Source of the DNA: a virus
Taxonomy: Duplodnaviria > Caudoviricetes
DNA length: 56,921 nucleotides
Virus record (IMG/VR): IMGVR_UViG_3300037294_000251
Coordinates: 1 to 56,921 of that record
Strand: one strand, 5' to 3'
The translations under genes were made by a program, and so were the position numbers. Shown piece by piece: positions 12,801-55,130 of this stretch. The notes beneath the pieces are model-generated. The model saw nothing but the letters and a program-made list of their open reading frames with translations, was not told the DNA's origin and did not search any database. Position 1 is the stretch's first letter. Each line of letters starts with the position of its first letter.

Positions 12801-12981
12801 CGGCAAGCGTGGTCAGGTCTCCGCCAATTTGCTTGGTCTGAGGGATGTAGTTTTTCAGGCCGCGAACGAAGTCGCCATCTTCCTCCTGAGCCGGAGCGGA
12901 ATCGGCGTACATCGAATCAAGCGGATTTTCAGGCGCGGCGCTATTTGGCGAGTCGTACATTTCATCGAGCGGATTAGTCAT
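3886..12981 (-). CDS. Giant polyvalent (probably virion-ejected) protein: PBECR-like nuclease, LPD5, LPD1, metallopeptidase-like, ART-like, LPD38-like regions
   Basis: 3031 aa; motifs GLRHIELRHG, EDFGEKIGGARKD, FGFRGVEFGNW/AHEWFHALD/EMAARAF, FHEYYAHYGLR, FKNWFG..LYHGT..GYDG; last gene of the late operon. Confidence 0.8.
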   Translation of the reverse strand: MTNPLDEMYDSPNSAAPENPLDSMYADSAPAQEEDGDFVRGLKNYIPQTKQIGGDLTTLAGLGMRKALGPGEVSQGMIDKGQEWSSDAAGQMVGKDTDEFTGALDKGVGSLLTDYVPYQAGQAVGMIGESLATAAAGAAVGGAIGSAGAGVGAVPGALAGGIAGAIEGAAVKQGVKALARKLLAEQGEGAAQSFLAKEAAKATGQKIGLNAGLATGALAHGFGETGGRAIGEATKDGGSIDNVDFGRVVPAAIGHAGLEFVGDKIGLGAISKEGWRAAGTGAGAIAKTAAAKAGVTGLKEAPVEAGQTVLERYAGNLNLADAEAGKEYLNAAAAGATMGGVIGGAGGVHTALSQPDPATFVQPTPTAENPAPAPVPRPDPNAGPLSRAAFALPAPSIAGFLPSPEQTLFADAAGNVSPSGPARDVDREYRPTGREKGPQSFGSGMDQQADRGAAPSVEGDYIPRSQYAPKNQSPATQNTFDGERPALTDTRPQGTDSFTVDAAGNAVADKVNRAPTADYVQGGRGMDQQTPVGKRYSNPIQAKNAISKAAQPKLLEVVKVADKHYEVKPTAAAEPAPSVTAQEAPIQFAAGQKWRHGKDVYHVNKVLDDGRAQVSTPSGGQLFTIRPEQAATEKWAQDDAAQPVTATVKPKAPARKIDRDRDSLTHAVIRLGGIKTEWRQDTTGDTKGNAQLPGVGALWGDKTGTSIDDMASLLDQHGYVPVGEMEKDGGVRWLQAALQDEASGSKTHFAPGSKRQEEEAVKAEEQRQADTAAQQEASGALDSAQAVESDLLDDTDLMEVRAEAAAKHTAELDAIFGDANDGPSPGTPSADSSAQEEQRNGTGESGSAGSGKRPPTSDNDARATGAPETAPSLELSSQTEAKLASSKATNQTPVKDTAPANTDDQSGPVAPVKWFGTQNKASFYLKGKKLQATHEVVEADPGRFEVREKAQPVAEPVAAAEQPDAFVNNPDGSIDFGEITPEMATAAGRQAGKIRLQQGDDSRGLRHIELRHGAQIRKAGYDSVEQFVAAAVKSPDFVWRPESTTQLAVIELIGKGKAVFIQLQPGTDAAGDYYAVNTAFPVSVTYAEKKKGWKLLWSREAVPAVASGELSPFAEADQKAGDQPTMPSGQSSADSVAQPAAAESAAEPKAKVEDFGEKIGGARKDTATTGKKKTAKETDSRPAWQRRYEITQIAASTTPSEVGRWVISDKRKLDWKKQPRQLRGNYATEEEALQMLPVIAVAMKHRVLSVRDGDGTGFEIWRDVTDRKRVKVVDQVFPSRETGMEYMAKNAEAIIETNTTFGEADLPRPDSTVRKGAERRTGPVMDSAFTEAFGFRGVEFGNWNNQEERQQLLNDAYDGLLDLADVMGIPARAISLNGDLALAFGARGQGLSGARAHYEPGKVVINLTKLNGAGSLAHEWFHALDHYFARQDGKSSSEWSVDKDGTRALKISSNFESDAASSGFLRNNSGVREVLRDAYTDLMKTMFSKGETYVEDTARVDEFVGRSRKEVTDRLDDIRRDLAEQKDPKYWKRSNKPASAEQLAEFDTVAQLVRDGTALTTELRANPGKSRSVLSSMRWTNDALEKMSEIYKAVRGRTGFNAETNGVLDRLRQTMGAYSSRLKMLADAQNGEQKLKKVPTQFAMDAKELDQGRGTDYWTTPHEMAARAFQGYVEDKVAEANGSSPFLNFGPENAGILTPWGWKRPFPAGDERKAINQSFDKLVEIIQTRETEDGNVVLFSRSATGATGATLGRRDVEQIAVGLVTEATVARRFVFSSWEELPQPIKDRAAAQGAKPGEIKAVHWRGKTYLVDRRFADVRDVERAIFHEYYAHYGLRQQYGKDLYHKLLRTWAKIGGTKGVRAMAAEQGFNIDHYIEGAKQDKELTEAQRRVLVMDELLAHMAESTGSLKRIIQEWYGAVRDWLRDNGWAELAKLNAADMAFMLRGARQAALHADGRSVSGQPLFQWVESVKQISTAAFKNWFGSSKVVDKQGAPKILYHGTGEDFTSFDQGRSGSSTRHSTAPLGIFMTGSRDTAQAYADKASDGMPGYSRVMQLYAAIRNPYMMSVEESQAIDSPGEAVTLRAKLEREGYDGINLKGTDTWIAFSNTQMKSATDNNGEFDEWSGDIRFRRSESASTAEAAAQTAWQSPSASQWDDLTYKLQDKHIDTKRVLEAIRATGKAISDDLDVYLQEELYHGRAAKRTEDFVTLELEPLMQYLAAAGLKMQDVEEYLHARHAKEANQVIAERNPKLPDGGSGMTNAEADAVLAAYNGIRRKQLEVAATKVDAIIASTRQTFVDYGLESQATVDGWGKTFAHYVPLMREQEGDGMSGLGTGQGFSIKGRETKGRTGSTRKVVDILANVAMQRERAIVRGEKNRVAAALVGLAKANPSDLWSVDVVPTQQVLDKDGKVKTQADSLYKQRDNVVVAKIPNADGTVTERAVVFNEDDARALRMAAALKNLDAPQLEGLLGATAKVTRYLAAVNTQYNPIFGTTNLARDVQGAALNLSSTPLAGKQREVLGQTLAALGGIYFDMRSRSKGKGGTHSEWAQLWEDFQDVGGQTGYRDQFRTSADRGEALAQALDPSAWTETKFGRFFTAGGRLKVPAEVARKAMAPIFSWLDDYNTAMENSTRLAAYKTALDAGMSKAQAASLAKNLTTNFNRKGQSATQVGALYAFFNASVQGTARIGDTLFDMDAGKPKTLRLSATGKKIVMGGVMLGGMQALLLVAAGFDDGEPPDFVRERNLIIPTGGKNYITIPMPLGFHVLPNLGRIPVEFALSGFDKPAEQVMKLLGLLSDTFNPIGNAGLSMQTLAPTVLDPLAALAENKDFSGRAIAKESFNKLTPGPALAKDTASLPALWISEGINYLTGGTKHVRGALSPTPDQIDYLFGQATGGVGREATKAMQVGQALGSGDEVPAYKIPLVGRFFGGSDNQGAKQSAFYESMDEVRRHAEQVKGLRLEGKMQEASDYAQEHKQARLRLAANAADREVRKLRNRRRELEQQGASREVVRAIEQRMTQRMERFTALAKQQ

Positions 12982-37489: not shown

Positions 37490-39064
37490 TCAAGTGCGCC
37501 AGTCGGGCGGCGGTGCTGGCTCGTAAGCGGTGGCTATACTGTTGATCATTCCAAGCTCTTTAGCTTGGGCGTACTGACGGAATCCATCAGCGCCCTCACT
37601 ACAACCGTTAGCCTTGTTTGGCTGGTCGGTATATCGGTTGTCGCTGCGGCTAAAGACCTTCTTGTAACCCTCAAGCCGATTAACTCCCTGCTTGGTGCCG
37701 GCTTCATCGAAGTAGCAACCCTTCATGTGCTTGCGTGTTTGCTGAATTCCGGTGATTAGCTGGGTGATGCGTGGCACAATTTCAAAGCGCCGCCCTGGCA
37801 TTAGCTCCTCAAGCATTTCCTGCGTGCTGTTGTTGAAGTCGCCAAGGCGCTTGTGCTCGGCGTCATGCGGCAGATAGTGAGTGCCGAACACATAGCCAAG
37901 TGACGTGAGGTGCGCAACGTAGTGCCGCAAGTCCTCGCCATGCGCCTCGTAGTAGTTGATAAATCGATCTTCGCCGCGTAGCTCTTGGTGGAACCAGATA
38001 GCGCAGCCGTCGCTGTTACCAATATCCCAAAAGGTATTTACCGGCAGATCAAGCGTTGGCACTCGAGTGATGCCACCGCGCTTGCGCACTGCGATCAGAT
38101 CTTTGGCGTAGTAGTTGCCTTCGGTACTGACCTGAAACGCCTCTTCGGGCGTGCTCGGGTATTCCTGCCACATGCGCTCTTCGGCGCCGGAGAAGTCAGA
38201 GTGCTTTGTCGCCGTGTACCAGGCGCGCTGGTCAGGATCAATATGGCAATCCATCAGCCCTTCGATCAAGTCGAAGTATTCGTGCTCTGCTGCGCTGATC
38301 GATACGGTGCCGACCGGAAGCCGGTATTTAGGCTCCTGCCACCATGCGCAGAAATGAAAGCGGTAGTCCTTTGGCGTTAGCTTCTTCTTGCTGACGTGGT
38401 GCGCCTGCGAGCGCTGGACCATATCGAAGAACTCGCCTTCTCGGCCCTCGGCTGTCGACTCGATGATGAGCACGCCATTGGTTGGCACTGCCGGGATTGA
38501 CCCGGTAACAACCTCTCGGGCCTTATCCGGGAACTTCGCGCAGATTTTCCCGAACTCAGAAACATGCAGCCGGTGGATGGTTCCTGAGCGCATCGAGGTG
38601 CCGACACGCACCGAACTGTTGTTGTGCGCGAAAAGCAGCTCTGCCGCACTATCTCTGGCCAGCGGAAAACGCTCACGAATCTCTGGCGGAAGGTTCTCGT
38701 AGCCGAATTTCACCTTATCCCGAAAGATTGTCTCGGCCGCTTCACGGCCCTGCGCGATGATGCCGCAGCGCTGATTGGCGTTAAACAGCGCGTGATCCAG
38801 CCAAAGAATCGCCACTAGCGTGGTAAAGCCAAGCTGTCGCGCTTTCAAGATCAGGTTGCGGTGCCATAGGCGGCTGATGAATCGGCGCTGCGCACGGTTA
38901 GGCTTGAACGGCATGACTAGCTCGTCTTCGCCGTCTTCGCCCTTAATCATAATTTTGTACAGGCAGCCCGAGAATAACCGCCACTCAGGATTAGCCAGGC
39001 AACGCTCCAGCTCGGCAGCATCGGTCGGCAACTCAAGAAGCGGCGTGTCGATTCTCACTGCCAT
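37490..39064 (-). CDS. Terminase large subunit
   Basis: Walker A ILKARQLGFTT, Walker B LHVSE, IIESTA, nuclease WDIG and LPHDA. Confidence 0.95.
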   Translation of the reverse strand: MAVRIDTPLLELPTDAAELERCLANPEWRLFSGCLYKIMIKGEDGEDELVMPFKPNRAQRRFISRLWHRNLILKARQLGFTTLVAILWLDHALFNANQRCGIIAQGREAAETIFRDKVKFGYENLPPEIRERFPLARDSAAELLFAHNNSSVRVGTSMRSGTIHRLHVSEFGKICAKFPDKAREVVTGSIPAVPTNGVLIIESTAEGREGEFFDMVQRSQAHHVSKKKLTPKDYRFHFCAWWQEPKYRLPVGTVSISAAEHEYFDLIEGLMDCHIDPDQRAWYTATKHSDFSGAEERMWQEYPSTPEEAFQVSTEGNYYAKDLIAVRKRGGITRVPTLDLPVNTFWDIGNSDGCAIWFHQELRGEDRFINYYEAHGEDLRHYVAHLTSLGYVFGTHYLPHDAEHKRLGDFNNSTQEMLEELMPGRRFEIVPRITQLITGIQQTRKHMKGCYFDEAGTKQGVNRLEGYKKVFSRSDNRYTDQPNKANGCSEGADGFRQYAQAKELGMINSIATAYEPAPPPDWRT

Positions 39065-39068
39065 TGCG

Positions 39069-39788
39069 TCAGCCCTCGTCGTGCTCAGGGTCGTCAGCAA
39101 CTGGCGCAAAACTGTTGGCATTGCCAGAAGTGACGCGATTCAGCAGCGTCGATAGCGCGTCAGCTTGCAATCCTTCCTTGTCATCAAGGCCAAAGGCTTG
39201 CCGCTCAAGCATAATCATCACGCGCAGCGACTCACCCAAGTCCTTCATGGTTTTGGCGCGACCAGGCAAGCTAACGATCTTCTGGTACAAGTCGTTCAGC
39301 CGGTCTTGGCCGTTGTCGCCCTCGCTGCGCATGAGTTCGCCAAGCTCTTCAAGCATCGCAACATTGTCGGCGCCGGTCTGATACTCCAGCTCGTCGAAGA
39401 GCGACATAACAATACGTCGACTGCGGGTTATGTCCTTGCGGTGCGACAGGCGCACGGTAGCTACAGCAAGCGCGTTGGCCTCGACAATCTCGCGCTCAGA
39501 AACGCGGGTTTCCGTGGAAACCTGCCTGGAAACCGCCTCTCTGGAAACCAGCTCCTCAGCCTTTGCTTGTATGCGTACAGCTAGATCACGCTGCCAGTCA
39601 TCTCGCTTTGCACGCTTGCCGATTGCTGTATGGCTTACGCCGTGCTCGCTCGCTATCTGGCGCAGCGGCTTAATGCCAGCGCGGTAATCCAGCTCAATGC
39701 GCGACCAGTCAGGCACAACTGCAGAAGCCGCCTTGCTGTTGGGCTTGGCGGCGTCGGTATTGCTTTCGGGTTTTGGTTTGGTCGTCAT
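39069..39788 (-). CDS. Terminase small subunit
   Basis: N-terminal HTH (DW..IE.DYRAG..LRQIA..HGVS..AI.KRAK..W), LERQAFGL; upstream of TerL. Confidence 0.85.
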   Translation of the reverse strand: MTTKPKPESNTDAAKPNSKAASAVVPDWSRIELDYRAGIKPLRQIASEHGVSHTAIGKRAKRDDWQRDLAVRIQAKAEELVSREAVSRQVSTETRVSEREIVEANALAVATVRLSHRKDITRSRRIVMSLFDELEYQTGADNVAMLEELGELMRSEGDNGQDRLNDLYQKIVSLPGRAKTMKDLGESLRVMIMLERQAFGLDDKEGLQADALSTLLNRVTSGNANSFAPVADDPEHDEG

Positions 39789-39955: not shown

Positions 39956-40399
39956 TCACGACATCATCCCTGCTCTTGGCGCGACAGCAGCTGCGCTATC
40001 GATTTCATCTGCCAGTTCACGCAGCGCGGCGCTTAACAAGCTCAATCCGTGTTTAAAAGAGCCGTCCACCGCGCAAGTCTTGATGCTGTCCTGTAAAACT
40101 TCGCGCACATTGAAAACATAAGTCGGCCCAGACCCAAGTCGGTCACCAAGCCCAGTGGTCAGGTACATAGTTAATGGGTCAGAGACAGCCGGACCTCCAA
40201 ACCCATCCGAGCTGTACTTATCACCCGGAGCGCCCGCCCACTCGATCGGGAAGCTGAGGTAAGACTCGTTGCTGTCCAGCGCCATGGCGAGCACGTCACG
40301 GCTGGCGTTAAGCAGCAACTGCTCCATGCCTTTGTGCAGCTCGTCAATCGAACCTAGCGAACATCCTGATAAATTAATCTCGCCTGACTTGCGCTTCAT
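39956..40399 (-). CDS. Hypothetical protein downstream of aca1
   Basis: 147 aa, AGGTG RBS. Confidence 0.7.
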   Translation of the reverse strand: MKRKSGEINLSGCSLGSIDELHKGMEQLLLNASRDVLAMALDSNESYLSFPIEWAGAPGDKYSSDGFGGPAVSDPLTMYLTTGLGDRLGSGPTYVFNVREVLQDSIKTCAVDGSFKHGLSLLSAALRELADEIDSAAAVAPRAGMMS

Positions 40400-40421: not shown

Positions 40422-40628
40422 TCATTGCGCCAAGCACTCCAAACCAAACTGCACAAGGTATGGCGCGGCGCGATGGTTATCGCCGGCTTCATCGCTCAGG
40501 TAGTAGCGCATCATCCGTGGCTTGAAGCCAAGCGCTTCTGCGGCTTGGCTTTGCGTCAAGCCGGCCTGCGCTATCAAGCTGCGCAGGTAAGCCGGATCGG
40601 GGTTGTGGTTGCTGGCGTTAGGCTTCAT
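40422..40628 (-). CDS. aca1: Anti-CRISPR-associated HTH repressor, Aca1 family
   Basis: ASNHNPDPAYLR.L...AG..Q..AA..LG...R.MRYYLS....R.APY.VQF.LECLA matches Pseudomonas Aca1 as I recall it across its length. Confidence 0.9.
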   Translation of the reverse strand: MKPNASNHNPDPAYLRSLIAQAGLTQSQAAEALGFKPRMMRYYLSDEAGDNHRAAPYLVQFGLECLAQ

Positions 40629-40843
40629 CAGTGGATGCCATATTCTTCATCGATCCGCTCTGCCCATTCGTCGCTAACATCGCCATAAATCGTCTTGCCG
40701 TCAGGGCAAGACGCGAGCGCTGAATAAAAGTCGCCATCAACTAAAACATCTAACCCGTTGCGCTGATCTTGGATGCTTGGGTTTTCGCAGTTATAAACGC
40801 CATCGATGTTATTTGCGGCCAGTTCGTTTCTGTTAGCGGTCAT
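40628..40843 (-). CDS. Candidate anti-CRISPR/anti-defence protein (71 aa, acidic)
   Basis: AAGGAG RBS; TGATG coupling to aca1; 15 D/E versus 4 K/R. Confidence 0.75.
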   Translation of the reverse strand: MTANRNELAANNIDGVYNCENPSIQDQRNGLDVLVDGDFYSALASCPDGKTIYGDVSDEWAERIDEEYGIH

Positions 40844-40889
40844 GGTGTAGCTCCTTGGTTCGCCTCGCCGTTGTGGCTGGCATGTGTCT

Positions 40890-40918
40890 AATATAGGCAA
40901 CCATTGCCTATCTGTACA
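40890..40918 (-). promoter_or_regulatory. acr-type promoter (TGTACA-N17-TATATT) with overlapping palindromic operator ATAGGCAA-N3-TTGCCTAT (40893-40911)
   Basis: Perfect 8-bp inverted repeat spanning the -35/-10 spacer, directly upstream of candidate acr-aca1. Confidence 0.75.
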
Positions 40919-40936: not shown

Positions 40937-41455
40937 TCATACTCCCACCAATCCCAGCTGCCCTTCATCGCACCGTCCGCGCAGCGCGCTTTTCACTGAC
41001 CTCAGCTCGCGGCGCAGGCTCTTTACCTGCAGCGCCAGGTCGGCAGCGATCATTGCGGCGTTGCGGCTTTGCTCGATCCCCACGGCTTGCATGACAACGC
41101 CCGCCTGAATCTGCGCCAGCATGCGGTCCTCTTTCGGCGTCAGCGTCAGCACATCGTCGCCTATGTCGATCTTGACCGTACCGTCCGGCAGTAGCGTTTT
41201 GCTGATAACCCGCGCTGCTTCGTGCGTGTCGACGGGGGCGTAAATGCCTCGGCGGATGCGCGTGACCATTCCGGCATTGATTAGCGTACCCACACGGTCA
41301 TCGATAACCGTCGCCGGCAAATCCAGCAACTCGATCAGCGCCTCGCGCGTCACGATCTGCTCCATCGCGTGCAGCTCTTGCACCGCCTCCAGCACTCGGC
41401 TGGTGGAGGAATTACTGCTCAGGTCAGACGTTGCGGCTAGCCGGCTTGTGGTCAT
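40937..41455 (-). CDS. Winged-helix-like protein, candidate late regulator
   Basis: VTREAL.ELL.L....IDDRV..L...G.V.R..RGIY pattern; last early gene before packaging module. Confidence 0.6.
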   Translation of the reverse strand: MTTSRLAATSDLSSNSSTSRVLEAVQELHAMEQIVTREALIELLDLPATVIDDRVGTLINAGMVTRIRRGIYAPVDTHEAARVISKTLLPDGTVKIDIGDDVLTLTPKEDRMLAQIQAGVVMQAVGIEQSRNAAMIAADLALQVKSLRRELRSVKSALRGRCDEGQLGLVGV

Positions 41456-41544
41456 GCACACCCCCAAAAAAACATGCTCGATTATACTTCTTCTGCATCA
41501 CTGAAAGCCACTAACTACGAGGCTTTCAGTGGTATTTTCACAGC

Positions 41545-41889
41545 TTAAAAACGCTCAATTTCCCAGCCGCCACCAGCCTTCTTTGTCTTTGCTGTAATGC
41601 CGAGTATCTGCAGCGGAAACATTGCCGCCGCAACCTTGGTTTTCACGCGAGCGTCATCTGTCCAAAAGCCTTTTACTTCGTGCAATTCAAGCGACCCACA
41701 CGACAGCATCACGGCAAAATCAGGCGTGTAAAAAGTCTTGTCTGCAAGGCGTAGCTTGATCCCCTCGAAAGCGTACCAAGCCACTTCTCCAGCAGCCTTG
41801 CGCAGCTCAAGGTGCTGCCGATAAGCCTGCTCCGTTTTGTTGAGCGTGCCGACTGGCAGCCGGCCTAGTGCTTGTAGACCGGCCATCAT
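41545..41889 (-). CDS. PD-(D/E)xK endonuclease (DUF1064-like)
   Basis: NKTE..Y, YTPDF, HEVKG motifs. Confidence 0.8.
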   Translation of the reverse strand: MMAGLQALGRLPVGTLNKTEQAYRQHLELRKAAGEVAWYAFEGIKLRLADKTFYTPDFAVMLSCGSLELHEVKGFWTDDARVKTKVAAAMFPLQILGITAKTKKAGGGWEIERF

Positions 41890-42284
41890 GTCCGCACCCC
41901 GAGATTTTTCTCGCAGTTGCAGTAGCCTGCGGCGCACTCATGGCAGCGCAGCGCGTCGATGGCTGCATAAATCGGCTCGGCCATTTCGCCTCCCTGCTGT
42001 ATGCCTTGCTGCCTGGGGCTGTCGTCATCAATCTCGCTTGCCGGTTCAAACGGCGCCGACTTCGCTCCCCGCCAATACTGATTCACGCCACGCAGCCACG
42101 ACACGGTGTACAGCACGCACAGCGCGAAGATTCCCCACTGCCCAGCGGAATAGGCCGACCAGAACCAAAAAGGCTGCGAGCACAAGCCAAACAAGCAGGC
42201 GTATCTGCGCTGATCTTCACTGGCGGCCTGCGACAGCCAGATAGCGACCACGCCGAATAGCGCAATACCTATTTGAGCAATCAC
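41886..42284 (-). CDS. Small multi-pass membrane protein
   Basis: Three hydrophobic segments; GL..QPFW..QWG motif. Confidence 0.65.
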   Translation of the reverse strand: MIAQIGIALFGVVAIWLSQAASEDQRRYACLFGLCSQPFWFWSAYSAGQWGIFALCVLYTVSWLRGVNQYWRGAKSAPFEPASEIDDDSPRQQGIQQGGEMAEPIYAAIDALRCHECAAGYCNCEKNLGVRT

Positions 42285-42454: not shown

Positions 42455-42727
42455 TCACTTGATCTTGCCTTCGCGCCGCAAAATCTCTTGCGTGCGGAAA
42501 ACCCCATGCGCAAAGTCGAGGCGTGTCTCTGCGTCTCGCAACTCAGAATGCAGGTGGCAGTCAGAGCACGCCCACGCGGCTTGCTGGTCATTTGGCTTGA
42601 TGCCCATGCCGTTGCTGCCAGCCATGCGGTAATGCGCGAGCACGGTTGTCTCAGGATTGAAGTTGCACACGCCGGCATAGCGCACCTGGCAGTCACGGCC
42701 GCGCGCGGCTTCGGTTAGCTTGCTCAT
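42455..42727 (-). CDS. DUF1364/YbcO-like Zn-binding nuclease-family protein
   Basis: AARGRDCQVR..GVC....ETTVLAHYR....GMG.KP.D..AAWACS.CH. Confidence 0.85.
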   Translation of the reverse strand: MSKLTEAARGRDCQVRYAGVCNFNPETTVLAHYRMAGSNGMGIKPNDQQAAWACSDCHLHSELRDAETRLDFAHGVFRTQEILRREGKIK

Positions 42728-42994: not shown

Positions 42995-43213
42995 TCACGC
43001 CGCCGCACTCCTACAGTCGTCACACTGCCAGCCCTTTATCGCCTTACGAGCGCCTTTTGGCTTTGACGCCTGGCACGACTCACAGAAGCGCCTCCCGTAC
43101 GCGATATAAATACCCTGCCTTGACTGGTCCTTTACCGCCTCCAGATGACGACTTCCGCCAGCTCTGCGCTGCTGTACGGCGCACTTATCCTCGTCGCTCA
43201 ACTTGCGCTTCAT
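42995..43213 (-). CDS. Small Zn-ribbon protein
   Basis: CESC...WQCDDC; ATGA coupling. Confidence 0.6.
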   Translation of the reverse strand: MKRKLSDEDKCAVQQRRAGGSRHLEAVKDQSRQGIYIAYGRRFCESCQASKPKGARKAIKGWQCDDCRSAAA

Positions 43214-43725
43214 GCGACCTCCTTAAACGAGTCAAATTCAGCCATTTCGGTTAGCCGCTCTTCGGTTAGCGTCGGCCAGTCGGTAGCAACAAGGTGCGCG
43301 CAGCACTTCGCCCAAAAGTCCTGAAATACCTCTTCGCCCATCGAGTCATACGACAGGCCTTGCGGGGTATGGCGGGTCAATCGGCCAAGGCCGGGCAGGT
43401 CGAATACTTCTTCATCGCAGTACACGCCAGACTCCAGCTGCAGCGCCTTGAGTGCGTCATGCGACTGCTTGCCAGTGAAGCGGTCGATGTTCTGCGCCAA
43501 TACCCGGCCAAGGCCATGCACAAGCCGGTTAAAGCGCTCGTTTCTTGGCTGTGTGAGTGCCGCGCGTACCTTGGTCGATAGCCGAAAGCCGCGCTCACGC
43601 ATCAGCGACTTGTCGGAGTCGGTTGCCGGCACTAATGCGCCGATGCGCTTACCGGTGGCCGGGTCAATAACTTCGCGGATGACGAAGTAAATTGGCATTG
43701 GTTTTGGCTTCGCTGGCTTAGCCAT
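43210..43725 (-). CDS. NinB-like/hypothetical protein
   Basis: PRN..FNR..H, LSYDSM.E..F patterns; nin-region position. Confidence 0.55.
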   Translation of the reverse strand: MAKPAKPKPMPIYFVIREVIDPATGKRIGALVPATDSDKSLMRERGFRLSTKVRAALTQPRNERFNRLVHGLGRVLAQNIDRFTGKQSHDALKALQLESGVYCDEEVFDLPGLGRLTRHTPQGLSYDSMGEEVFQDFWAKCCAHLVATDWPTLTEERLTEMAEFDSFKEVA

Positions 43726-44192: not shown

Positions 44193-45569
44193 TCATTTGC
44201 TGTACCTCCCGCCGCCGCGAGGCTTGTCGTCATCTGGCTTGGCGCTGTAGGTATCAAACGAAAGCGTGGAAGAAACGAACCGTTGAAACTGGCCTTGGAA
44301 CTGCAACAGGCAGAACCCAGGCTTTGCGTGCCGACACTTCACAACGTCCCACTCGGTAATCCCGCTGGCACCGTGCGGGCTTTTTTCATCGCGGAATGCC
44401 AGCGCGATAATGTCCGCGTCTTGCTCGATTTCGCCGGAGTCGCGCAGGTCGCTCATTTGCGGGCGCGAGTTAGCACCTCGGCTTTCCATCGCCCGGTTGA
44501 ACTGCGCCAGCACGATAATCGGGATACCCAGCTCTTTCGCCAGCGCCTTAAATCCGCGAGTGAAGGAGCCGATTTCGGCGCTGCGAGTCTGGTGCTTGCT
44601 GCCGGGGTCTGGGGCAACCAGCGTTAGGTAGTCGATAACGATCAAATCAAGCTTGCGGGCGCGATGCTCAAAGCGGGCGATATTGCAAATGCGACTGAAT
44701 GGCAGCGCGCCCTTGTCGCAAATGCGAACGTCAGCGCCCTTCATCTTCGCAACAGCGGCCTGTACTTTTATCGACTCGTCTGGGTTGCAGACGGCCTCGC
44801 CCGACTCAAGACGGTCTTTGCTCACGCCTGCGATTGCAGCCAGCCCGCGCAAGGCCAATTCTTTCTTGCCCATTTCGAGCGAAAATATCAGCGCCGACTT
44901 GCCGTCACGGGTTGCAATTTTGTCGCATAGGCCAGTCCCCATCACGGTTTTTCCGGTGCCTGGCTTGCCAGCGATAATCACCAAATTGCCGGGGCGAAGG
45001 CCGCTGGTAACGCCGTCTAGCTCAGACAGCCCGAAAGTCAGCCCAATCTCGGTTTTACCGTCTAGCCGGTCTTGCATATCGGAAAACACCGGCCCCAACG
45101 CTTGCTCGTAGCTCACCACGTCCGGCTCTTCATCCTCGAAGCAAAGGCCCATCAGCAATTGCTGCGCCTCTGCAATTTGATTGCTGATAACGCCCTTAGC
45201 CGTGGCAATTTCCATGATGGCGCGGCCGGCTTCGTAAAGCTGGCGGGCTTGGTGGCGCTCAGCAACCGTCTTGGCGTAATGCACGCCGTTAGCTGCGCTG
45301 GTCGTGTTTTTCTGTATCGCGCCAGCTAGGTAGGTCGTTGATTCGCCAGACGGTAGCCGGTCGGATATTTCGGCAAGCGTGATCAGGTCAGGCTTGACCC
45401 CCCTGGAATGGCATTGCAGCGCCAAGCCGTACAGGCAGCCAAGGTCTGCATCGCTGAAACTGGAGCCGGACAGGAATGCGCCGATGGTTTCGCAAAGCTC
45501 GGGCTTGAGGATCAATGCACCGATAACGCCCTGCTCTGCTTCGACTGAGTACAGCGGACGCTCGTTCAA
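44193..45569 (-). CDS. dnaB: Replicative DNA helicase, DnaB family
   Basis: EAEQ.VIG, Walker A GKPGTGKT, FSLEM, IDYL, LAQFNR, SDLRDSGEIEQDAD. Confidence 0.95.
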   Translation of the reverse strand: MNERPLYSVEAEQGVIGALILKPELCETIGAFLSGSSFSDADLGCLYGLALQCHSRGVKPDLITLAEISDRLPSGESTTYLAGAIQKNTTSAANGVHYAKTVAERHQARQLYEAGRAIMEIATAKGVISNQIAEAQQLLMGLCFEDEEPDVVSYEQALGPVFSDMQDRLDGKTEIGLTFGLSELDGVTSGLRPGNLVIIAGKPGTGKTVMGTGLCDKIATRDGKSALIFSLEMGKKELALRGLAAIAGVSKDRLESGEAVCNPDESIKVQAAVAKMKGADVRICDKGALPFSRICNIARFEHRARKLDLIVIDYLTLVAPDPGSKHQTRSAEIGSFTRGFKALAKELGIPIIVLAQFNRAMESRGANSRPQMSDLRDSGEIEQDADIIALAFRDEKSPHGASGITEWDVVKCRHAKPGFCLLQFQGQFQRFVSSTLSFDTYSAKPDDDKPRGGGRYSK

Positions 45570-47687: not shown

Positions 47688-47759
47688 AGGATAAACACGC
47701 ATCGTGATTACTGCAAACACAATTAGTGAAAGGCCGTTATTTCATAACGTGTTTAAAAT
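47688..47759. promoter_or_regulatory. OR region: three 17-bp operators (47693, 47715, 47738), pR (TTGCAG-N17-TATCCT, minus) and pRM -10 (TAAAAT 47754-47759)
   Basis: AAACACGCATCGTGATT, AAACACAATTAGTGAAA, TATTTCATAACGTGTTT share the AAWCAC-N5-GTGWTT pattern with OL. Confidence 0.8.
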
Positions 47760-47766
47760 TTCACCT

Positions 47767-48492
47767 ATGAAAACTCTCGGATCGCGCATTGCGCATTACA
47801 GAAACATCGCTCAAATGTCGCAGGGCTCGCTTGCCAAAGCTTGCGGCTGGGCATCCCAGTCGCGCATAGGAAATTATGAGAAAGACACAAGGGAGCCGAC
47901 ACTTGAGGATATTGCGCAGATAGCCAAGGCATTAGGCATTGATCAGCGCCAGCTCCTTACAGCTGAACCCACAAGGCCCGTAGAGGCCAACGCCGAGCTG
48001 ATCGGCGCAATGTCTGCATGGGATAGCAACACGCCGCTTGGTGACGATGAAGTCGCCATTCCGCTCTATAAGGAAGTTGAATTGGCAGCAGGTAGTGGCG
48101 CATCAGAAGTAATCGAAGTGCCGGGGCGCTTGCTGCGGCTCGCTAAGTCCACGTTGCGCGAGGCTGGTGTACAGGCTGTGCACGCGGTATGCGCCACCAT
48201 TAAAGGCCGTAGCATGGAGCGCCTGATAATGGACGGCGCCACCATCGGCATTGATACCGGCAGCAAGGCCATTGAGGACGGCGAGATATACGCCTTCGAT
48301 CAGGGCGGCATGCTCCGGGTTAAATACCTCTATCGCCTACCCGCTGGCGCCGTTCGCGTGCGCAGCGAGAACGACGAAGAGTTCCCCGACGAAACACTAA
48401 CAGCTGAAGAGTTCGCCCAGGTGCGGATGCTTGGCTGGGTATTCTGGTGGTCAACCGTGCGCCGCCGGCGCGGACTGAGCATCGCTAAGTAA
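47767..48492 (+). CDS. cI: CI-like repressor (HTH plus S24 autopeptidase)
   Basis: HTH, Ala-Gly site ELAAGSG, G.SM catalytic Ser, RVK catalytic Lys. Confidence 0.92.
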   Translation: MKTLGSRIAHYRNIAQMSQGSLAKACGWASQSRIGNYEKDTREPTLEDIAQIAKALGIDQRQLLTAEPTRPVEANAELIGAMSAWDSNTPLGDDEVAIPLYKEVELAAGSGASEVIEVPGRLLRLAKSTLREAGVQAVHAVCATIKGRSMERLIMDGATIGIDTGSKAIEDGEIYAFDQGGMLRVKYLYRLPAGAVRVRSENDEEFPDETLTAEEFAQVRMLGWVFWWSTVRRRRGLSIAK

Positions 48493-52478: not shown

Positions 52479-52650
52479 CCCGCTACCAGCGCGCCAAGCG
52501 CCACGCAACATGGAAAGGCGCAACACTGGCTCTGATCGCAGTAGCCGCCTACATCTTCGCCCTGAGCTTCGCAGGAAGCCTTACCGGGCAATAATCAAAA
52601 CCAAATCACGCGAGCACGGCCAAGGGCTTTGCTTGCGCGGGAGAAAAAGC

Positions 52651-53469
52651 ATGAGTGCTGTTATTAAACACACGGAGGCGATGCCAGCCATTGCTGAACA
52701 AGCGCTTGTAGAGGTGCTAAGCGGCAGCCTGTACCCGGGCGCCGCGCATAACTCCGTAGTTATGGTGCTTGCTTACTGCAAGGCCGCCCAGCTCGACCCG
52801 ATGCTAAAGCCGGTGCATATCGTTCCGATCTATCAAAAAGGTCTCGGCATGATTGATGTGGTTATGCCGGGTATCGGCCTGTACCGCATTCAAGCGGCAC
52901 GCACTGGCCAGTACGCCGGTATCACTGAGCCTGAGTTTGGGCCAGCGGTTAGCGAGAAGCTGGGTGGCGTGGACGCCATCTACCCCGAGTGGTGCCGCGT
53001 AACGGTTAAGCGCCGAATGCATGACGGCGCCATTGCTGAGTTCACCGCCTATGAGCGCTGGACAGAAAACTACGCAACGGCGGGGCGAGACACGAAGGCG
53101 CCAAACACCATGTGGCTAAAGCGTTCCTTTGCCCAGCTCGCCAAATGCACGGAGGCGCAAGCGCTGCGCAAGGCATTCCCCGAGGTTGGCGCAGCACCTA
53201 CAGCCGACGAAATGGAAGGCAAGTCGTTTGAAGAGTCGGCGCGCGATGTTAGCCCAGCAGCATCAGTGCAAGAACAGAAAAAACCCGGAAAGGCACAGTT
53301 TGAAGACGCTGCATTTGCCGAAAAACTGCCGGTATGGCAGGCGGGAGTCGACGCCGGCAAGACCAGCCCAGAAGACCTGATTGCCTTCCTGCAATCCAAG
53401 TACGAGCTAACTGACAGCCAGATTGATTCGATCAACCGTATGGCTCCAATTGAGGGTAGCGAAGCATGA
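52651..53469 (+). CDS. bet: Single-strand annealing recombinase (Bet/RecT family)
   Basis: YC....LDP..K.VH.VP, GI..YR..A.R, QLAKC.EAQALRKAFP. Confidence 0.9.
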   Translation: MSAVIKHTEAMPAIAEQALVEVLSGSLYPGAAHNSVVMVLAYCKAAQLDPMLKPVHIVPIYQKGLGMIDVVMPGIGLYRIQAARTGQYAGITEPEFGPAVSEKLGGVDAIYPEWCRVTVKRRMHDGAIAEFTAYERWTENYATAGRDTKAPNTMWLKRSFAQLAKCTEAQALRKAFPEVGAAPTADEMEGKSFEESARDVSPAASVQEQKKPGKAQFEDAAFAEKLPVWQAGVDAGKTSPEDLIAFLQSKYELTDSQIDSINRMAPIEGSEA

Positions 53470-55130
53470 AAATTCATTCCGTAGATCAAGGCACTCCAGA
53501 ATGGCAAGCGCTGCGCGCCAACCACTTCACCGCCTCCGAAGCGCCAGCCATGAAAGGTGCTTCTAAGCATCAGTCACGCAATGCACTACTGGCCTTGAAA
53601 AAGTCTGGTATTGCGCCGGAAGTCACGCCGTCGATGCAGATCATCTTCGACAAAGGGCATAAAGCCGAAGCGGCGGCACGGCCGATTATTGAGGCGCTAA
53701 TTGGCGAAGAGCTTTACCCGATTACCGGCTCAAGCGGCAATCTGCTGGCGTCGATGGATGGCGCCACAATGATGGTTGATACGCTCTTTGAGCATAAATT
53801 GTGGAATGCGGCGCTGGTCGAAAGCGTGAACGCTGGCGAGCTTGGCCCGCATTACTACTGGCAGCTTGAGCAGCAATTGCTTGTCAGTGGCGCGGAAAAG
53901 GTGATTTTCGTTTGCTCCGATGGCACTGCCGAAAACATGGTGCATATGGAATACCGCGCAGTTCCTGGCCGCGCCGAGCAGTTGCTTGACGGCTGGGCGC
54001 AGTTTGAGCAAGACCTTGCTGAATTTGTGCCGGAAGATGCTGCCCCGCTGGTGATTGGCAAGGCGCCGGACGAGTTGCCAGCGCTGCGCATTGAGCTGAC
54101 CGGCATGGTTACTGGCAGCAACTTGAAAGCCTTTGAAGCGTCAGCGCTGGCGGTGATTGGCTCGGTGAAAACCACGCTGACCACAGATCAAGACTTTGCC
54201 GACGCCAAGAAGGCCGTGAAGTGGTGCGGCGACGTTGAGTCGGCTGTAGCGCTGGCAAAAAAACAAGCGCTTGGCCAGACCGAATCAATCGAAGAGTTGT
54301 TTCGCTCACTTGATCGCATCAGCGCCAACGCCCGTGAAACGCGCCTGAAAGTCGACAAGATGGTCAAGGCGCAAGAACTGTCGATAAAGACTGAAATCAA
54401 ACAGGCTGGCGAATCAGCATTTACCGCCCACGTCACGGCCATCAATGCGCGCCTAGGTAGCGTGCAGCTACCAGCAATCACTGCTGACTTTGCCGGTGCA
54501 ATGAAGGGCAAAAGCAGCCTTTCGAGCATCCGCAACGCGGTAGATACCGAGCTGGCCCGCGCCAAGATCGAGGCCAACGCTACCACCGAGGCAATCGAGG
54601 TCAATCTGGCGTCACTGCGCGAATTAGCAAACAACCATCGCGGCCTGTTCGCAGATCGCCAGCAATTAGTACTCAAGGATAACGAAACGCTAGTGCTGCT
54701 GATTAATGCGCGAATTTCCGAGCATGAAAAGGCTGAGGCGGTGAAGGATGAGGCGCTACGCGAGGGAATCCGACTGGAGGAGCTGGCTAAGATTAAGCGG
54801 GAGCAAGACGCCAAGGTAGACGCAGACGCGGAAGCTGAGCGCATTGCTGCGCTGCCAGTGGTTGAACCGGTGCAGATAACGGCTGAGCCAGTAGCGGCGG
54901 CGCTTGAGCCTGCTGCGGCGCTGGAAGATATTGGCCTTGTTCGCTCGCCGGAGCCTGTATCAGTTGCTCGCGCTCCGACCCAAATCAAGATCGCCCCACT
55001 TGAACGAATCACTATTGTGATCGAGGGCGCAACAATGCCGGTCAATCTTGGCTTGCAAGTGCTTGGTGGTGTGATCGTCAGCGCGCACCTTGGCGATTAT
55101 TCGGACGCTATCGAGGCCGCAGCAGCATGA
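53466..55130 (+). CDS. YqaJ/lambda-exonuclease family protein with long coiled-coil extension
   Basis: QGT.EW...R...FTASEA, ASMDG, EHK, YYWQ..QQL. Confidence 0.9.
   Translation: MKIHSVDQGTPEWQALRANHFTASEAPAMKGASKHQSRNALLALKKSGIAPEVTPSMQIIFDKGHKAEAAARPIIEALIGEELYPITGSSGNLLASMDGATMMVDTLFEHKLWNAALVESVNAGELGPHYYWQLEQQLLVSGAEKVIFVCSDGTAENMVHMEYRAVPGRAEQLLDGWAQFEQDLAEFVPEDAAPLVIGKAPDELPALRIELTGMVTGSNLKAFEASALAVIGSVKTTLTTDQDFADAKKAVKWCGDVESAVALAKKQALGQTESIEELFRSLDRISANARETRLKVDKMVKAQELSIKTEIKQAGESAFTAHVTAINARLGSVQLPAITADFAGAMKGKSSLSSIRNAVDTELARAKIEANATTEAIEVNLASLRELANNHRGLFADRQQLVLKDNETLVLLINARISEHEKAEAVKDEALREGIRLEELAKIKREQDAKVDADAEAERIAALPVVEPVQITAEPVAAALEPAAALEDIGLVRSPEPVSVARAPTQIKIAPLERITIVIEGATMPVNLGLQVLGGVIVSAHLGDYSDAIEAAAA

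What the first reader, a model, noticed from the sequence alone, without database searches (positions are those of the whole stretch)
40628..40843. Candidate new anti-CRISPR gene in an acr-aca1 operon
Seen: a self-contained cassette between the early genes and the terminase, with promoter, palindromic operator, AAGGAG RBS, a 71-aa ORF (MTANRNELAANNIDGVYNCENPSIQDQRNGLDVLVDGDFYSALASCPDGKTIYGDVSDEWAERIDEEYGIH; 15 D/E vs 4 K/R) and TGATG coupling to an Aca1 homolog. Known: small genes upstream of aca1 in Pseudomonas elements are the classic source of type I-C/I-E/I-F Acrs, many of them acidic DNA mimics. The 5' leader CATGCCAGCCACAACGGCGAGGCGAACCAAGGAG also looks like the JBD30-type acr leader as I recall it. 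Inference: this is an Acr or other anti-defence protein; I cannot match it to any named Acr I remember.
Basis: partly seen in the sequence, partly recalled or inferred. Interest (0 to 1): 0.9.

Follow-up and report, generated by a model that had tools for sequence, protein, structure and literature searches.

The report
Candidate new anti-CRISPR beside Aca1
A small, very acidic phage gene sits in a textbook anti-CRISPR operon, and its relatives occur fused to a known anti-CRISPR, so it is probably the first member of an unnamed anti-CRISPR family, though its activity is untested.

Summary
Window 40628-40843 (minus strand) encodes a 71-aa protein with 15 D/E and 4 K/R. It has an AAGGAG ribosome-binding site and its stop overlaps the start of a true Aca1 homolog (PDB Aca1, E 6e-23). 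Upstream lie a promoter, a 19-bp perfect palindrome at the position of the JBD30/DMS3 Aca1 operator IR2, and the 24-nt leader shared with Pseudomonas acr-aca1 operons.

The protein ("X") matches no Pfam, PHROG or NCBIfam family, no PDB sequence or fold, and no deposited phage or plasmid. It does belong to a real, unnamed family of uniformly acidic small proteins found in metagenomes.

Two new lines of evidence support the anti-CRISPR reading:
- Two divergent clusters (52% identical, 11 sequences) are natural fusions of an AcrIE4-like domain to X. This is the same architecture as the dual inhibitor AcrIE4-F7, with X where AcrIF7 sits.
- In other phages and prophages, X homologs are followed by overlapping genes for DNA-binding proteins of other families (a ribbon-helix-helix protein; a winged-helix protein).

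Best reading: a new anti-CRISPR family under Aca1 autorepression (about 0.6). The target and mechanism are inferred only (a type I system, possibly I-F, through an acidic surface). No experiment or binding prediction supports the function yet.

The parts
40890..40918 (-). Sigma-70-like acr promoter: -35 TGTACA (40913-40918), 17-nt spacer, -10 TATATT (40890-40895).
   Evidence: One search finds the site. It aligns with the DMS3/D3112 acr promoter. A single consensus match in this region is what chance gives.
40893..40911 (.). Putative Aca1 operator: a 19-bp perfect palindrome with half-sites GGCAA/TTGCC separated by 3 bp. It lies in the promoter spacer and overlaps the -10 hexamer, at the position of IR2 in JBD30/DMS3.
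   Evidence: unique in the window; alignment. The JBD30 IR2 core half-site GGCAC and its spacing come from passages of PMC8633003.
40861..40884 (-). Conserved 24-nt 5' leader shared by Pseudomonas acr-aca1 operons.
   Evidence: identical in DMS3, D3112 and BUCT566, with one change in Ab31. One search gives the megablast match.
40851..40856 (-). Ribosome-binding site AAGGAG, 7 nt before the ATG.
40628..40843 (-). Gene X: a 71-aa acidic protein and candidate anti-CRISPR of an unnamed family.
   Evidence: establish the gene and its family. One search gives the charge, another the fold model, and the excess of synonymous changes between homologs.
40422..40628 (-). aca1: a 68-aa helix-turn-helix repressor whose start overlaps the stop of X by one base.
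   Evidence: The DNA-contact residues R44, R47, Y48 and R59 of JBD30 Aca1 are conserved in the alignment, numbered as in the passages.

Best explanation
Gene X (40628-40843, minus strand) is the anti-CRISPR gene of an acr-aca1 operon carried by a complete 56.9-kb temperate-type phage. It founds an anti-CRISPR family that has not been named.

Proposed working: early in infection the strong promoter fires and X is made from the conserved leader. Aca1, translated from the overlapping start, accumulates and binds as a dimer to the 19-bp palindrome inside the promoter, shutting the operon off. X, a compact alpha/beta protein with net charge -11, binds a component of a type I CRISPR-Cas interference complex and blocks target DNA recognition or cleavage. 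Because relatives are fused behind an AcrIE4-like domain exactly where AcrIF7 sits in AcrIE4-F7, the likeliest target is a system other than I-E, with type I-F first, possibly through a positively charged DNA-binding surface.

Shown here: the operon anatomy, the Aca1 identity, the existence of the family, the fusions, and the recurrent downstream DNA-binding genes.

Inferred: that X inhibits CRISPR-Cas at all (about 0.6), the subtype (I-F about 0.3), and the charge-based mechanism.
For: 1. X occupies the acr slot of a verified acr-aca1 operon.
- Aca1 matches PDB Aca1 at E 6e-23 with its base-contacting residues kept.
- The operator sits at the IR2 position with GGCA-type half-sites at the same spacing.
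- The leader is shared with DMS3, D3112, BUCT566 and Ab31, whose slots hold genes annotated as type I-E Acr or AcrF2.

2. Natural fusions link X to a known Acr.
- P0006 (111 aa) and P0011 (119 aa) carry an N-terminal Pfam PF25703 domain above the curated cut-off (32.4 and 31.6 bits against 27).
- P0011 residues 3-51 match the AcrIE4 half of PDB 7vzm AcrIE4-F7 at E 9.6e-5.
- Both are 38-39% identical to the 52-aa D3112 orf31.
- Their C-terminal halves are X homologs.
- The two fusions are only 52% identical to each other over their full length and stand for 2 and 9 sequences, so the fusion is a maintained lineage.
- In AcrIE4-F7 the residue 1-52 domain binds Cas8e and the C-terminal AcrIF7 domain binds Cas8f (passages of PMC8887544).

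3. The downstream regulator is swapped between loci. X homologs are followed by overlapping genes for other DNA-binding proteins.
- In L008/L009 it is a 58-aa ribbon-helix-helix protein (Pfam TacA1 N-terminus, E 4.5e-7, above cut-off). There X has its own TTGACA-17-TATAGT promoter just after a Q-like antiterminator gene.
- In L005/L007 it is a 148-aa protein. 18 of 22 relatives match winged-helix families weakly, the AF2 model has mean pLDDT 68.7, and the top Foldseek hits are all MarR/ArsR-type regulators, but at E 0.02-0.1.

4. X is a real, selected gene family.
- 24 small proteins are among the 35 hits in 1.84 billion representatives, and 36 proteins match the family profile.
- Codon differences are mostly synonymous: 15 synonymous against 2 non-synonymous, and 25 against 11.
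- All 64 family and cluster proteins examined are acidic: net charge -5 to -24, median -11.

5. All loci recovered are on phages, prophages or phage-like contigs.
Against: - No functional data exist, and no similarity in sequence or fold to any solved or named Acr was found.
- Guilt by association fails for a share of candidates.
- More distant family members sit in contexts that are not clearly acr-aca-like. In L006 an unknown 178-aa gene follows X. In L017/L018 an N-terminally extended form lies inside a run of small early genes.
- The Marinobacter MAG that carries an X prophage shows no Cas1 or Csy3, although it is an incomplete 2.6-Mb assembly.
- The ribbon-helix-helix and 148-aa partners are not named Aca families.
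- The winged-helix assignment for the 148-aa partner rests on sub-threshold matches.
- The identity of PF25703 and D3112 orf31 with AcrIE4 is partly my recollection. The paper passages say only that AcrIE4 came from phage D3112.
- The host and its CRISPR type are unknown.
Confidence: 0.6

Rival explanations
1. X is an anti-defence protein against a system other than CRISPR-Cas, for example an acidic DNA mimic that blocks restriction-modification or another DNA-binding defence. It has been placed under Aca1 control in the same accessory slot.
For: The whole family is strongly acidic, and X has no similarity to any known Acr. The family reaches marine and salt-water Gammaproteobacteria with different regulators. 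No cas genes were detected in the one host MAG examined. The abstract of 10.1101/2020.05.22.110304, seen in the listing, reports that anti-defence genes cluster with acr genes.
Against: The fusion partner is specifically an AcrIE4-like domain, and the known fusion of that kind combines two Acrs. In the acr-aca1 loci I fetched, the genes in the slot before aca1 are annotated Acrs where they are annotated at all.
Confidence: 0.2
2. X is a phage accessory or early protein with no counter-defence role, for example a modulator of a host or phage DNA-binding protein. Its place before aca1 reflects only that this is a permissive, well-expressed cargo slot.
For: Distant members (L017/L018, L006) lie among ordinary small early genes without a clear aca partner. 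The family is rare: it was found in 1 of 401 sampled genomes of the class, and that one was the centre genome itself.
Against: Three different DNA-binding partners are coupled to X, and X is fused to an AcrIE4-like domain. Both are hard to explain without a shared counter-defence role.
Confidence: 0.15
3. The ORF is not a functional gene but a chance open frame in an acr-aca1 remnant.
For: None beyond its small size.
Against: It has a consensus ribosome-binding site and its stop overlaps the aca1 start. Dozens of homologs share conserved motifs. Changes between homologs are mostly synonymous. The AF2 model is confident, with mean pLDDT 80.7.
Confidence: 0.02

Closest known systems
acr-aca1 operons of P. 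aeruginosa Mu-like phages (JBD30 acrIF1-aca1; DMS3, D3112, MP29)
   Same: The layout is the same: promoter, an inverted-repeat operator in the promoter spacer, a conserved 24-nt leader, a small acr gene, then an overlapping aca1. The Aca1 proteins are about 61-63% identical.
   Different: The gene in the acr slot is unrelated to any of theirs. The window has one inverted repeat where DMS3 has two (IR1 and IR2). The half-site is GGCAA rather than GGCAC, and Aca1 V45 is replaced by M. The host phage is a 56.9-kb lambdoid-type phage whose terminase region is closest to P. stutzeri phage 8P (73%), not a Mu-like phage.
AcrIE4-F7 (PDB 7VZM), a natural dual inhibitor from a P. citronellolis mobile element
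   Same: P0006 and P0011 have the same two-domain plan: an AcrIE4-like helical domain of about 50 residues, a short linker, then a small acidic C-terminal domain.
   Different: The C-terminal domain is X, not AcrIF7. X shows no sequence similarity to the 67-aa Ab31 ORF67, which I take to be AcrIF7 from recollection. The profile and fold searches do not find AcrIE4-F7 or AcrIF7 chains. The window's X stands alone, without the AcrIE4-like domain.
Acidic Cas8-binding anti-CRISPRs (AcrIF7 and the AcrIE4 domain; AcrIF2 and AcrIF10 by recollection)
   Same: They are small, have pI about 4, and have negative surfaces needed for binding the PAM-recognition site of Cas8 (passages of PMC8887544). X and its family have pI about 4.1.
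   Different: No shared fold was detected. The model is beta-beta-alpha-beta-alpha-beta-alpha with no PDB or BFVD match at E <= 0.001. A Cas8 target for X is a guess.

Membership tests
Aca1 (the downstream gene, 40422-40628) | Sequence homology to structurally characterised Aca1 across the whole helix-turn-helix domain | tested here: met
   E 6.1e-23 to 7c0g and 7.5e-23 to 7fa3, covering residues 3-67 of 68; phrog_3865 at E 5.9e-29; 128 phage records match.
Aca1 (the downstream gene, 40422-40628) | Conservation of the residues shown to be needed for IR2 binding (R44, R47, Y48, R59 of JBD30 Aca1) | tested here: met
   The alignment, read with the numbering in passages of PMC8633003: R44, R47, Y48, Y49, R59, R22 and Q32 are kept. 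V45 becomes M, S42 becomes K and R33 becomes S.
Aca1 (the downstream gene, 40422-40628) | An inverted-repeat operator of the GGCAC-N3-GTGCC type in the promoter of its own operon | tested here: met
   GGCAA-N3-TTGCC at the IR2 position, differing in one base per half-site. Binding itself cannot be tested with these tools.
Anti-CRISPR (functional class), for gene X | A small gene directly upstream of, and co-transcribed with, an aca gene on a mobile element | tested here: met
   a one-base overlap with aca1, no terminator between the genes, and a complete phage record.
Anti-CRISPR (functional class), for gene X | Homologs also associated with aca-like regulators or with known acr genes | tested here: met
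   A ribbon-helix-helix partner in L008/L009, a winged-helix partner in L005/L007, and AcrIE4-like fusions. This does not hold for the distant members in L006 and L017/L018.
Anti-CRISPR (functional class), for gene X | Inhibition of a CRISPR-Cas system in vivo, or binding to a Cas component | not testable with these tools
   This needs plaque or transformation assays and binding experiments.
Named Acr families with a Pfam or NCBIfam model or a solved structure (including AcrIF7 and AcrIE4) | Detectable similarity of X in sequence or fold | tested here: not met
   Pfam, PHROGs and NCBIfam give 0 families. PDB by phmmer and by profile gives no Acr. Foldseek against PDB gives 0 hits at E <= 0.001. 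BLASTP against Ab31 ORF67 finds no alignment.
AcrIE4 / Pfam PF25703 ('AcrF31') | Presence of the roughly 52-residue helical domain | tested here: not met
   It is absent from the window's X. It is present only in the fused relatives P0006 and P0011.

The most novel reading that the evidence does not exclude
X is the first member of a new-fold anti-CRISPR family that spreads as an exchangeable module. It occurs alone under at least three unrelated repressor families (Aca1, a ribbon-helix-helix protein, a ribbon-helix-helix-plus-winged-helix protein). It also occurs welded to AcrIE4-like and to other, still unknown N-terminal domains (P0009, P0013, P0020, P0059, and the 143-aa form in L017), giving natural multi-target inhibitors. 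Those unknown N-terminal domains would then themselves be undiscovered anti-defence domains, and the ribbon-helix-helix partner a new class of Aca.
Probability: 0.3. Interest if true: 0.7.

Novelty: new member of a known kind. Interest (0 to 1): 0.55.

Why it matters
If X inhibits a CRISPR-Cas system, it adds an anti-CRISPR family with no detectable relative among solved structures, and so probably a new way of blocking a type I complex. It would also provide a second natural two-domain inhibitor built on AcrIE4, which helps explain how phages assemble multi-system inhibitors. The family then becomes a new seed for guilt-by-association searches beyond Pseudomonas, through its ribbon-helix-helix and winged-helix partners and through the unknown domains fused to it. 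The claim can be tested directly with standard plaque assays.

Tried and rejected
**Searches that led nowhere**
- X has no family in Pfam, PHROGs or NCBIfam.
- PDB sequence searches found no Acr, with either the single protein or the 20-sequence profile. The best matches were chance hits at E 0.26-1.2.
- tblastn found nothing in 50,697 phage records or 72,556 plasmid records.
- Foldseek of the AF2 model found 0 matches at E <= 0.001 in PDB or BFVD.
- The ESM Atlas gave no usable feature hit, and its structure hits rest on a poor model of its own.

**Hits set aside.** Of the 35 hits, I set aside 11 long proteins (342-3683 aa) with several matched stretches. They are repeat proteins that match only short blade-like motifs of X many times over. 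I also discarded the VopV match of P0020, a sum of insignificant repeat matches. PDB searches of the N-terminal extensions of P0009 and P0013 found nothing.

**Complex prediction.** X (alignment A4) with Swiss-Prot CSY1_PSEAB, the P. aeruginosa Cas8f used as a stand-in host protein, gave 'no answer' with score 0.00 and the controls were not run. This is neither support nor evidence against.

**Expression.** The only listed holder of the region is one DNA run, X1, which may be the source sample. No RNA holder is listed.

**Extra loci.**
- Four further scans of viral contigs found only one contig already held and two distant loci.
- The genome and metagenome scans found 1 and 4 loci.
- L011 is cut at the contig end and was not analysed.
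- The 401-genome class search found only the centre genome.

**Literature.** Searches for AcrIF31, AcrF31 and AcrIF26-30 did not find the source of the Pfam name 'AcrF31'. These text searches and those cannot find a protein by sequence. Papers whose supplements could hold it include PMC7913775, 10.1101/2020.05.22.110304, PMC10799925, PMC7319584 and PMC9765179. Of these I saw only listings and abstracts.

**Papers read.** I read passages only, through find, of PMC8887544, PMC8633003, 10.1101/2024.01.05.574328 and PMC12658196. The last has no occurrence of 'ribbon-helix-helix' or 'RHH'.

**Rejected idea.** X is not a diverged AcrIF7: there is no alignment and no fold match.

**BLASTP miss.** BLASTP between the ribbon-helix-helix protein of L008 and the 148-aa protein of L005 found no alignment. 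Their N-terminal likeness is by eye only.
Full report
**What is there**

The window is a complete virus record of 56,921 bp with direct terminal repeats. On the minus strand the gene order runs as follows:
- replication and nin-type genes: a DnaB-like helicase at 44193-45569, a NinB/Orf-like gene at 43210-43725, an HNH gene at 42455-42727, and a resolvase-like gene at 41545-41937;
- a 172/176-aa protein of phrog_8117 at 40937-41467;
- the cassette under study;
- an orphan 147-aa ORF at 39956-40399;
- the small and large terminase subunits at 39069-39788 and 37490-39121.

- The -35 hexamer TGTACA lies at 40913-40918, followed by a 17-nt spacer and the -10 hexamer TATATT at 40890-40895.
- A perfect 8+3+8 palindrome lies at 40893-40911.
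- A 24-nt leader lies at 40861-40884 and AAGGAG at 40851-40856.
- The 71-aa ORF X lies at 40628-40843.
- The stop of X shares one base with the start of a 68-aa ORF at 40422-40628.
- No terminator-like site was found on that strand between 39800 and 41600.

**The downstream gene is Aca1**

It matches the solved Aca1 structures at E 6e-23 over residues 3-67 and phrog_3865 at E 5.9e-29. tblastn finds it in 128 phage records, 127 of them Pseudomonas phages, at about 61-63% identity in the records listed.

I read the alignment with the residue numbers given in passages of PMC8633003. The residues whose alanine mutants lose IR2 binding (R44, R47, R59) or weaken it (Y48) are all kept. V45 is M.

The JBD30 operator IR2 has the core GGCAC-AAT-GTGCC. 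The window has GGCAA-TGG-TTGCC at the aligned position, inside the promoter spacer and overlapping the -10 hexamer. So the operator has the same geometry with one changed base per half-site. DMS3 has two such repeats. The window has one.

**The leader is the Pseudomonas acr leader**

The 24 nt at 40861-40884 are identical in DMS3, D3112 and BUCT566, and differ by one base in Ab31. This holds although those operons carry different acr genes. In a 10-kb megablast, this promoter and leader stretch (window 40839-40906) is the only part that matches P. aeruginosa phages (85.7% over 68 nt). The terminase and portal region is closest to P. stutzeri phage 8P at 73%. The regulatory module has therefore moved between otherwise unrelated Pseudomonas-type phages.

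**What X is not**

- X has no Pfam, PHROG or NCBIfam family.
- It has no PDB relative by sequence, either alone or as a 20-sequence profile.
- It has no tblastn match in 50,697 phage or 72,556 plasmid records.
- BLASTP finds no alignment to the 67-aa gene in the acr slot of phage Ab31.
- An AlphaFold2 model built on 31 sequences is fairly confident (mean pLDDT 80.7, pTM 0.64) with the order beta-beta-alpha-beta-alpha-beta-alpha. It has no Foldseek match at E <= 0.001 in PDB or BFVD.

**What X is**

X is a member of a real but unnamed family.
- HMMER against 1.84 billion representatives gave 35 hits at E <= 0.001.
- 24 of these are small proteins of 55-124 aa that share the same motifs along their whole length.
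- The other 11 are long repeat proteins that match short pieces many times, and I set them aside.
- A profile search found 36 proteins. None carries a name beyond 'hypothetical protein', and only one has a precomputed Pfam domain.
- All 64 family and cluster sequences I held are acidic: net charge -5 to -24, median -11, median pI 4.13.
- Between homologous genes, most codon differences are synonymous: 15 synonymous against 2 non-synonymous for L005/L007, and 25 against 11 for L005/L010.
- The family is rare. It was found in 1 of 401 sampled genomes of the class of the one genome that carries it, and that one is the carrier itself.

**New evidence 1: fusion to an AcrIE4-like domain**

P0006 (111 aa) and P0011 (119 aa) have X as their C-terminal half. 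Their N-terminal 50 residues hit Pfam PF25703 ('Anti-CRISPR protein F31', a model of 52 positions) at 32.4 and 31.6 bits, against a cut-off of 27.

P0011 residues 3-51 match residues 5-53 of PDB 7vzm, AcrIE4-F7, at E 9.6e-5. Both proteins are 38-39% identical to the 52-aa orf31 of phage D3112.

Passages of PMC8887544 state three relevant points:
- AcrIE4 was found in phage D3112.
- Residues 1-52 of AcrIE4-F7 form the AcrIE4 domain, which binds Cas8e.
- The C-terminal AcrIF7 domain binds Cas8f, joined to the first by a flexible linker at residues 52-53.

That orf31 is AcrIE4, and that the Pfam name refers to 'gene 31' of D3112, is my inference. My text searches did not find the source of the name.

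In the alignment, read with the paper's numbering, P0011 keeps acidic residues at the positions of E19, D22, D30 and E31, which the paper found important for Cas8e binding.

The two fusions are 52% identical to each other over both halves and represent 2 and 9 sequences in their 90% clusters. The fusion is therefore a maintained lineage and not an assembly accident. X thus occupies the place that AcrIF7 has in the only characterised fusion of this type.

**New evidence 2: changing regulators**

In two metagenome contigs (L008, L009), an X homolog 63% identical to the query follows a Q-like antiterminator gene. It has its own TTGACA-17 nt-TATAGT promoter. A 58-aa ORF overlaps its end by 14 nt and matches the ribbon-helix-helix N-terminus of TacA1 at E 4.5e-7, above the cut-off.

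In an IMG/VR record rated complete (L005) and in a Marinobacter MAG (L007), the order is integrase, a 96-aa ORF, X, then an overlapping 148-aa ORF. That protein has 26 homologs.
- Of the 22 I aligned, 18 give weak hits to winged-helix families.
- Its AF2 model (mean pLDDT 68.7) shows two helices after a disordered start, then helix-helix-helix-strand-strand.
- The best Foldseek hits are all MarR/ArsR/TFE-type winged-helix proteins, but only at E 0.02-0.1.

L010 has a related arrangement by eye. One gene family coupled to three unrelated small DNA-binding proteins is the pattern by which acr-aca operons are recognised.

The pattern does not hold for the distant members. In L006 (35% identical), an unknown 178-aa ORF follows X and a sigma-70 region-4-like gene lies upstream on the other strand. 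In L017/L018, a 143-aa N-terminally extended form lies in a run of small early genes behind a 59-aa ORF that only looks like a helix-turn-helix protein to the eye.

**Mechanism**

Shown here:
- the anatomy of an Aca1-controlled operon;
- a conserved acidic alpha/beta protein;
- the linkage of X to an AcrIE4-like domain and to repressor genes.

Inferred:
- Aca1 dimers repress the promoter through the palindrome, as shown for JBD30 (passages).
- X is produced in an early burst and binds a CRISPR-Cas interference component.
- The fusion logic of AcrIE4-F7 (two domains, two systems) points to a target other than type I-E. I put type I-F first at about 0.3, then I-C or another component.
- The uniform negative charge would fit binding to a DNA-binding surface, as reported for AcrIF7 and the AcrIE4 domain, but charge alone is weak evidence.

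**Against**

- There are no functional data.
- X resembles no known Acr.
- The host and its CRISPR type are unknown.
- The one host assembly available, an incomplete 2.6-Mb MAG, shows no Cas1 or Csy3.
- Part of the family lies in ordinary early-gene contexts.

**Comparison and novelty**

The operon is a standard acr-aca1 operon, a known kind. The gene in its acr slot belongs to a family with no name in any library or collection I could search. I file it as a new member of a known kind: a candidate new Acr family, not a member of any existing one.

I could not search Anti-CRISPRdb, dbAPIS or the supplementary tables of guilt-by-association screens. An earlier listing as a candidate cannot be excluded.

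**Verdict**

I put the confidence that X is an anti-CRISPR at 0.6, another anti-defence role at 0.2, another function at 0.15, and no gene at 0.02. Interest is 0.55: a well-founded, cheaply testable lead with an informative natural fusion, but of a kind that the field finds regularly.

Noticed in passing
window 40861-40884 (-); L002 963-986, L003 1177-1200, L004 840-863, L015: The 24-nt leader between the -10 hexamer and the ribosome-binding site is invariant, or changed by one base, across acr-aca1 operons. These operons carry different acr genes and, in BUCT566 and Ab31, a different sequence at the operator position. Such conservation in an untranslated stretch suggests a function of its own, for example at the RNA level. 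L008 shares a 9-mer (GCCAGCCAC) in its own leader, which may be chance.
   Followed up: partly
window 39956-40399 (-): An orphan 147-aa ORF starts 22 nt after aca1, has its own AGGTGA-like ribosome-binding site, and has no terminator-like site before it. It has no Pfam, PHROG or NCBIfam family, no phage tblastn hit and nothing usable in the Atlas. It may be further cargo of the same operon.
   Followed up: partly
window 3886-12981 (-): A 3031-aa 'polyvalent' protein carries LPD1 (residues 1649-1728), an ADP-ribosyltransferase ART-PolyVal domain (1989-2120) and LPD38 (2735-2924). It is probably an injected multi-domain protein.
   Followed up: no
L003 1130-1175 and L004 795-838: BUCT566 and Ab31 have Aca1 homologs and the conserved leader. 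At the position of IR2, however, they carry a different, non-GGCAC sequence. Their Aca1 operator, if any, must be built or placed differently.
   Followed up: no
proteins P0009, P0013, P0020, P0026, P0059; L017 2773-3204: X also occurs with N-terminal extensions of 45-75 residues. These are unrelated to AcrIE4 and have no significant Pfam or PDB match where searched (P0009, P0013, P0020 and P0026 in Pfam; P0009, P0020 and P0013 in PDB). P0059 and the L017 form were not searched. Some may be mis-called starts (P0012 looks like one). Others may be further unknown domains fused to X.
   Followed up: partly
L005 3539-3594: A 22-nt inverted repeat (82% complementary, 12 nt between the arms) includes a TATAAT. 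It lies upstream of the 96-aa ORF that precedes X in the Marinobacter-type prophage. It is a candidate operator for the 148-aa regulator.
   Followed up: no
window 40937-41467 (-): A 172/176-aa protein of phrog_8117 (E 5.7e-46, function unknown) lies directly upstream of the acr promoter. It has only weak winged-helix-type Pfam matches.
   Followed up: no
window 47704-48492 (+), 52510-55130 (+): A CI/LexA-type repressor (HTH plus Peptidase_S24) and a RecT / YqaJ-exonuclease pair mark the phage as a temperate lambdoid type. I did not look for an integrase.
   Followed up: no
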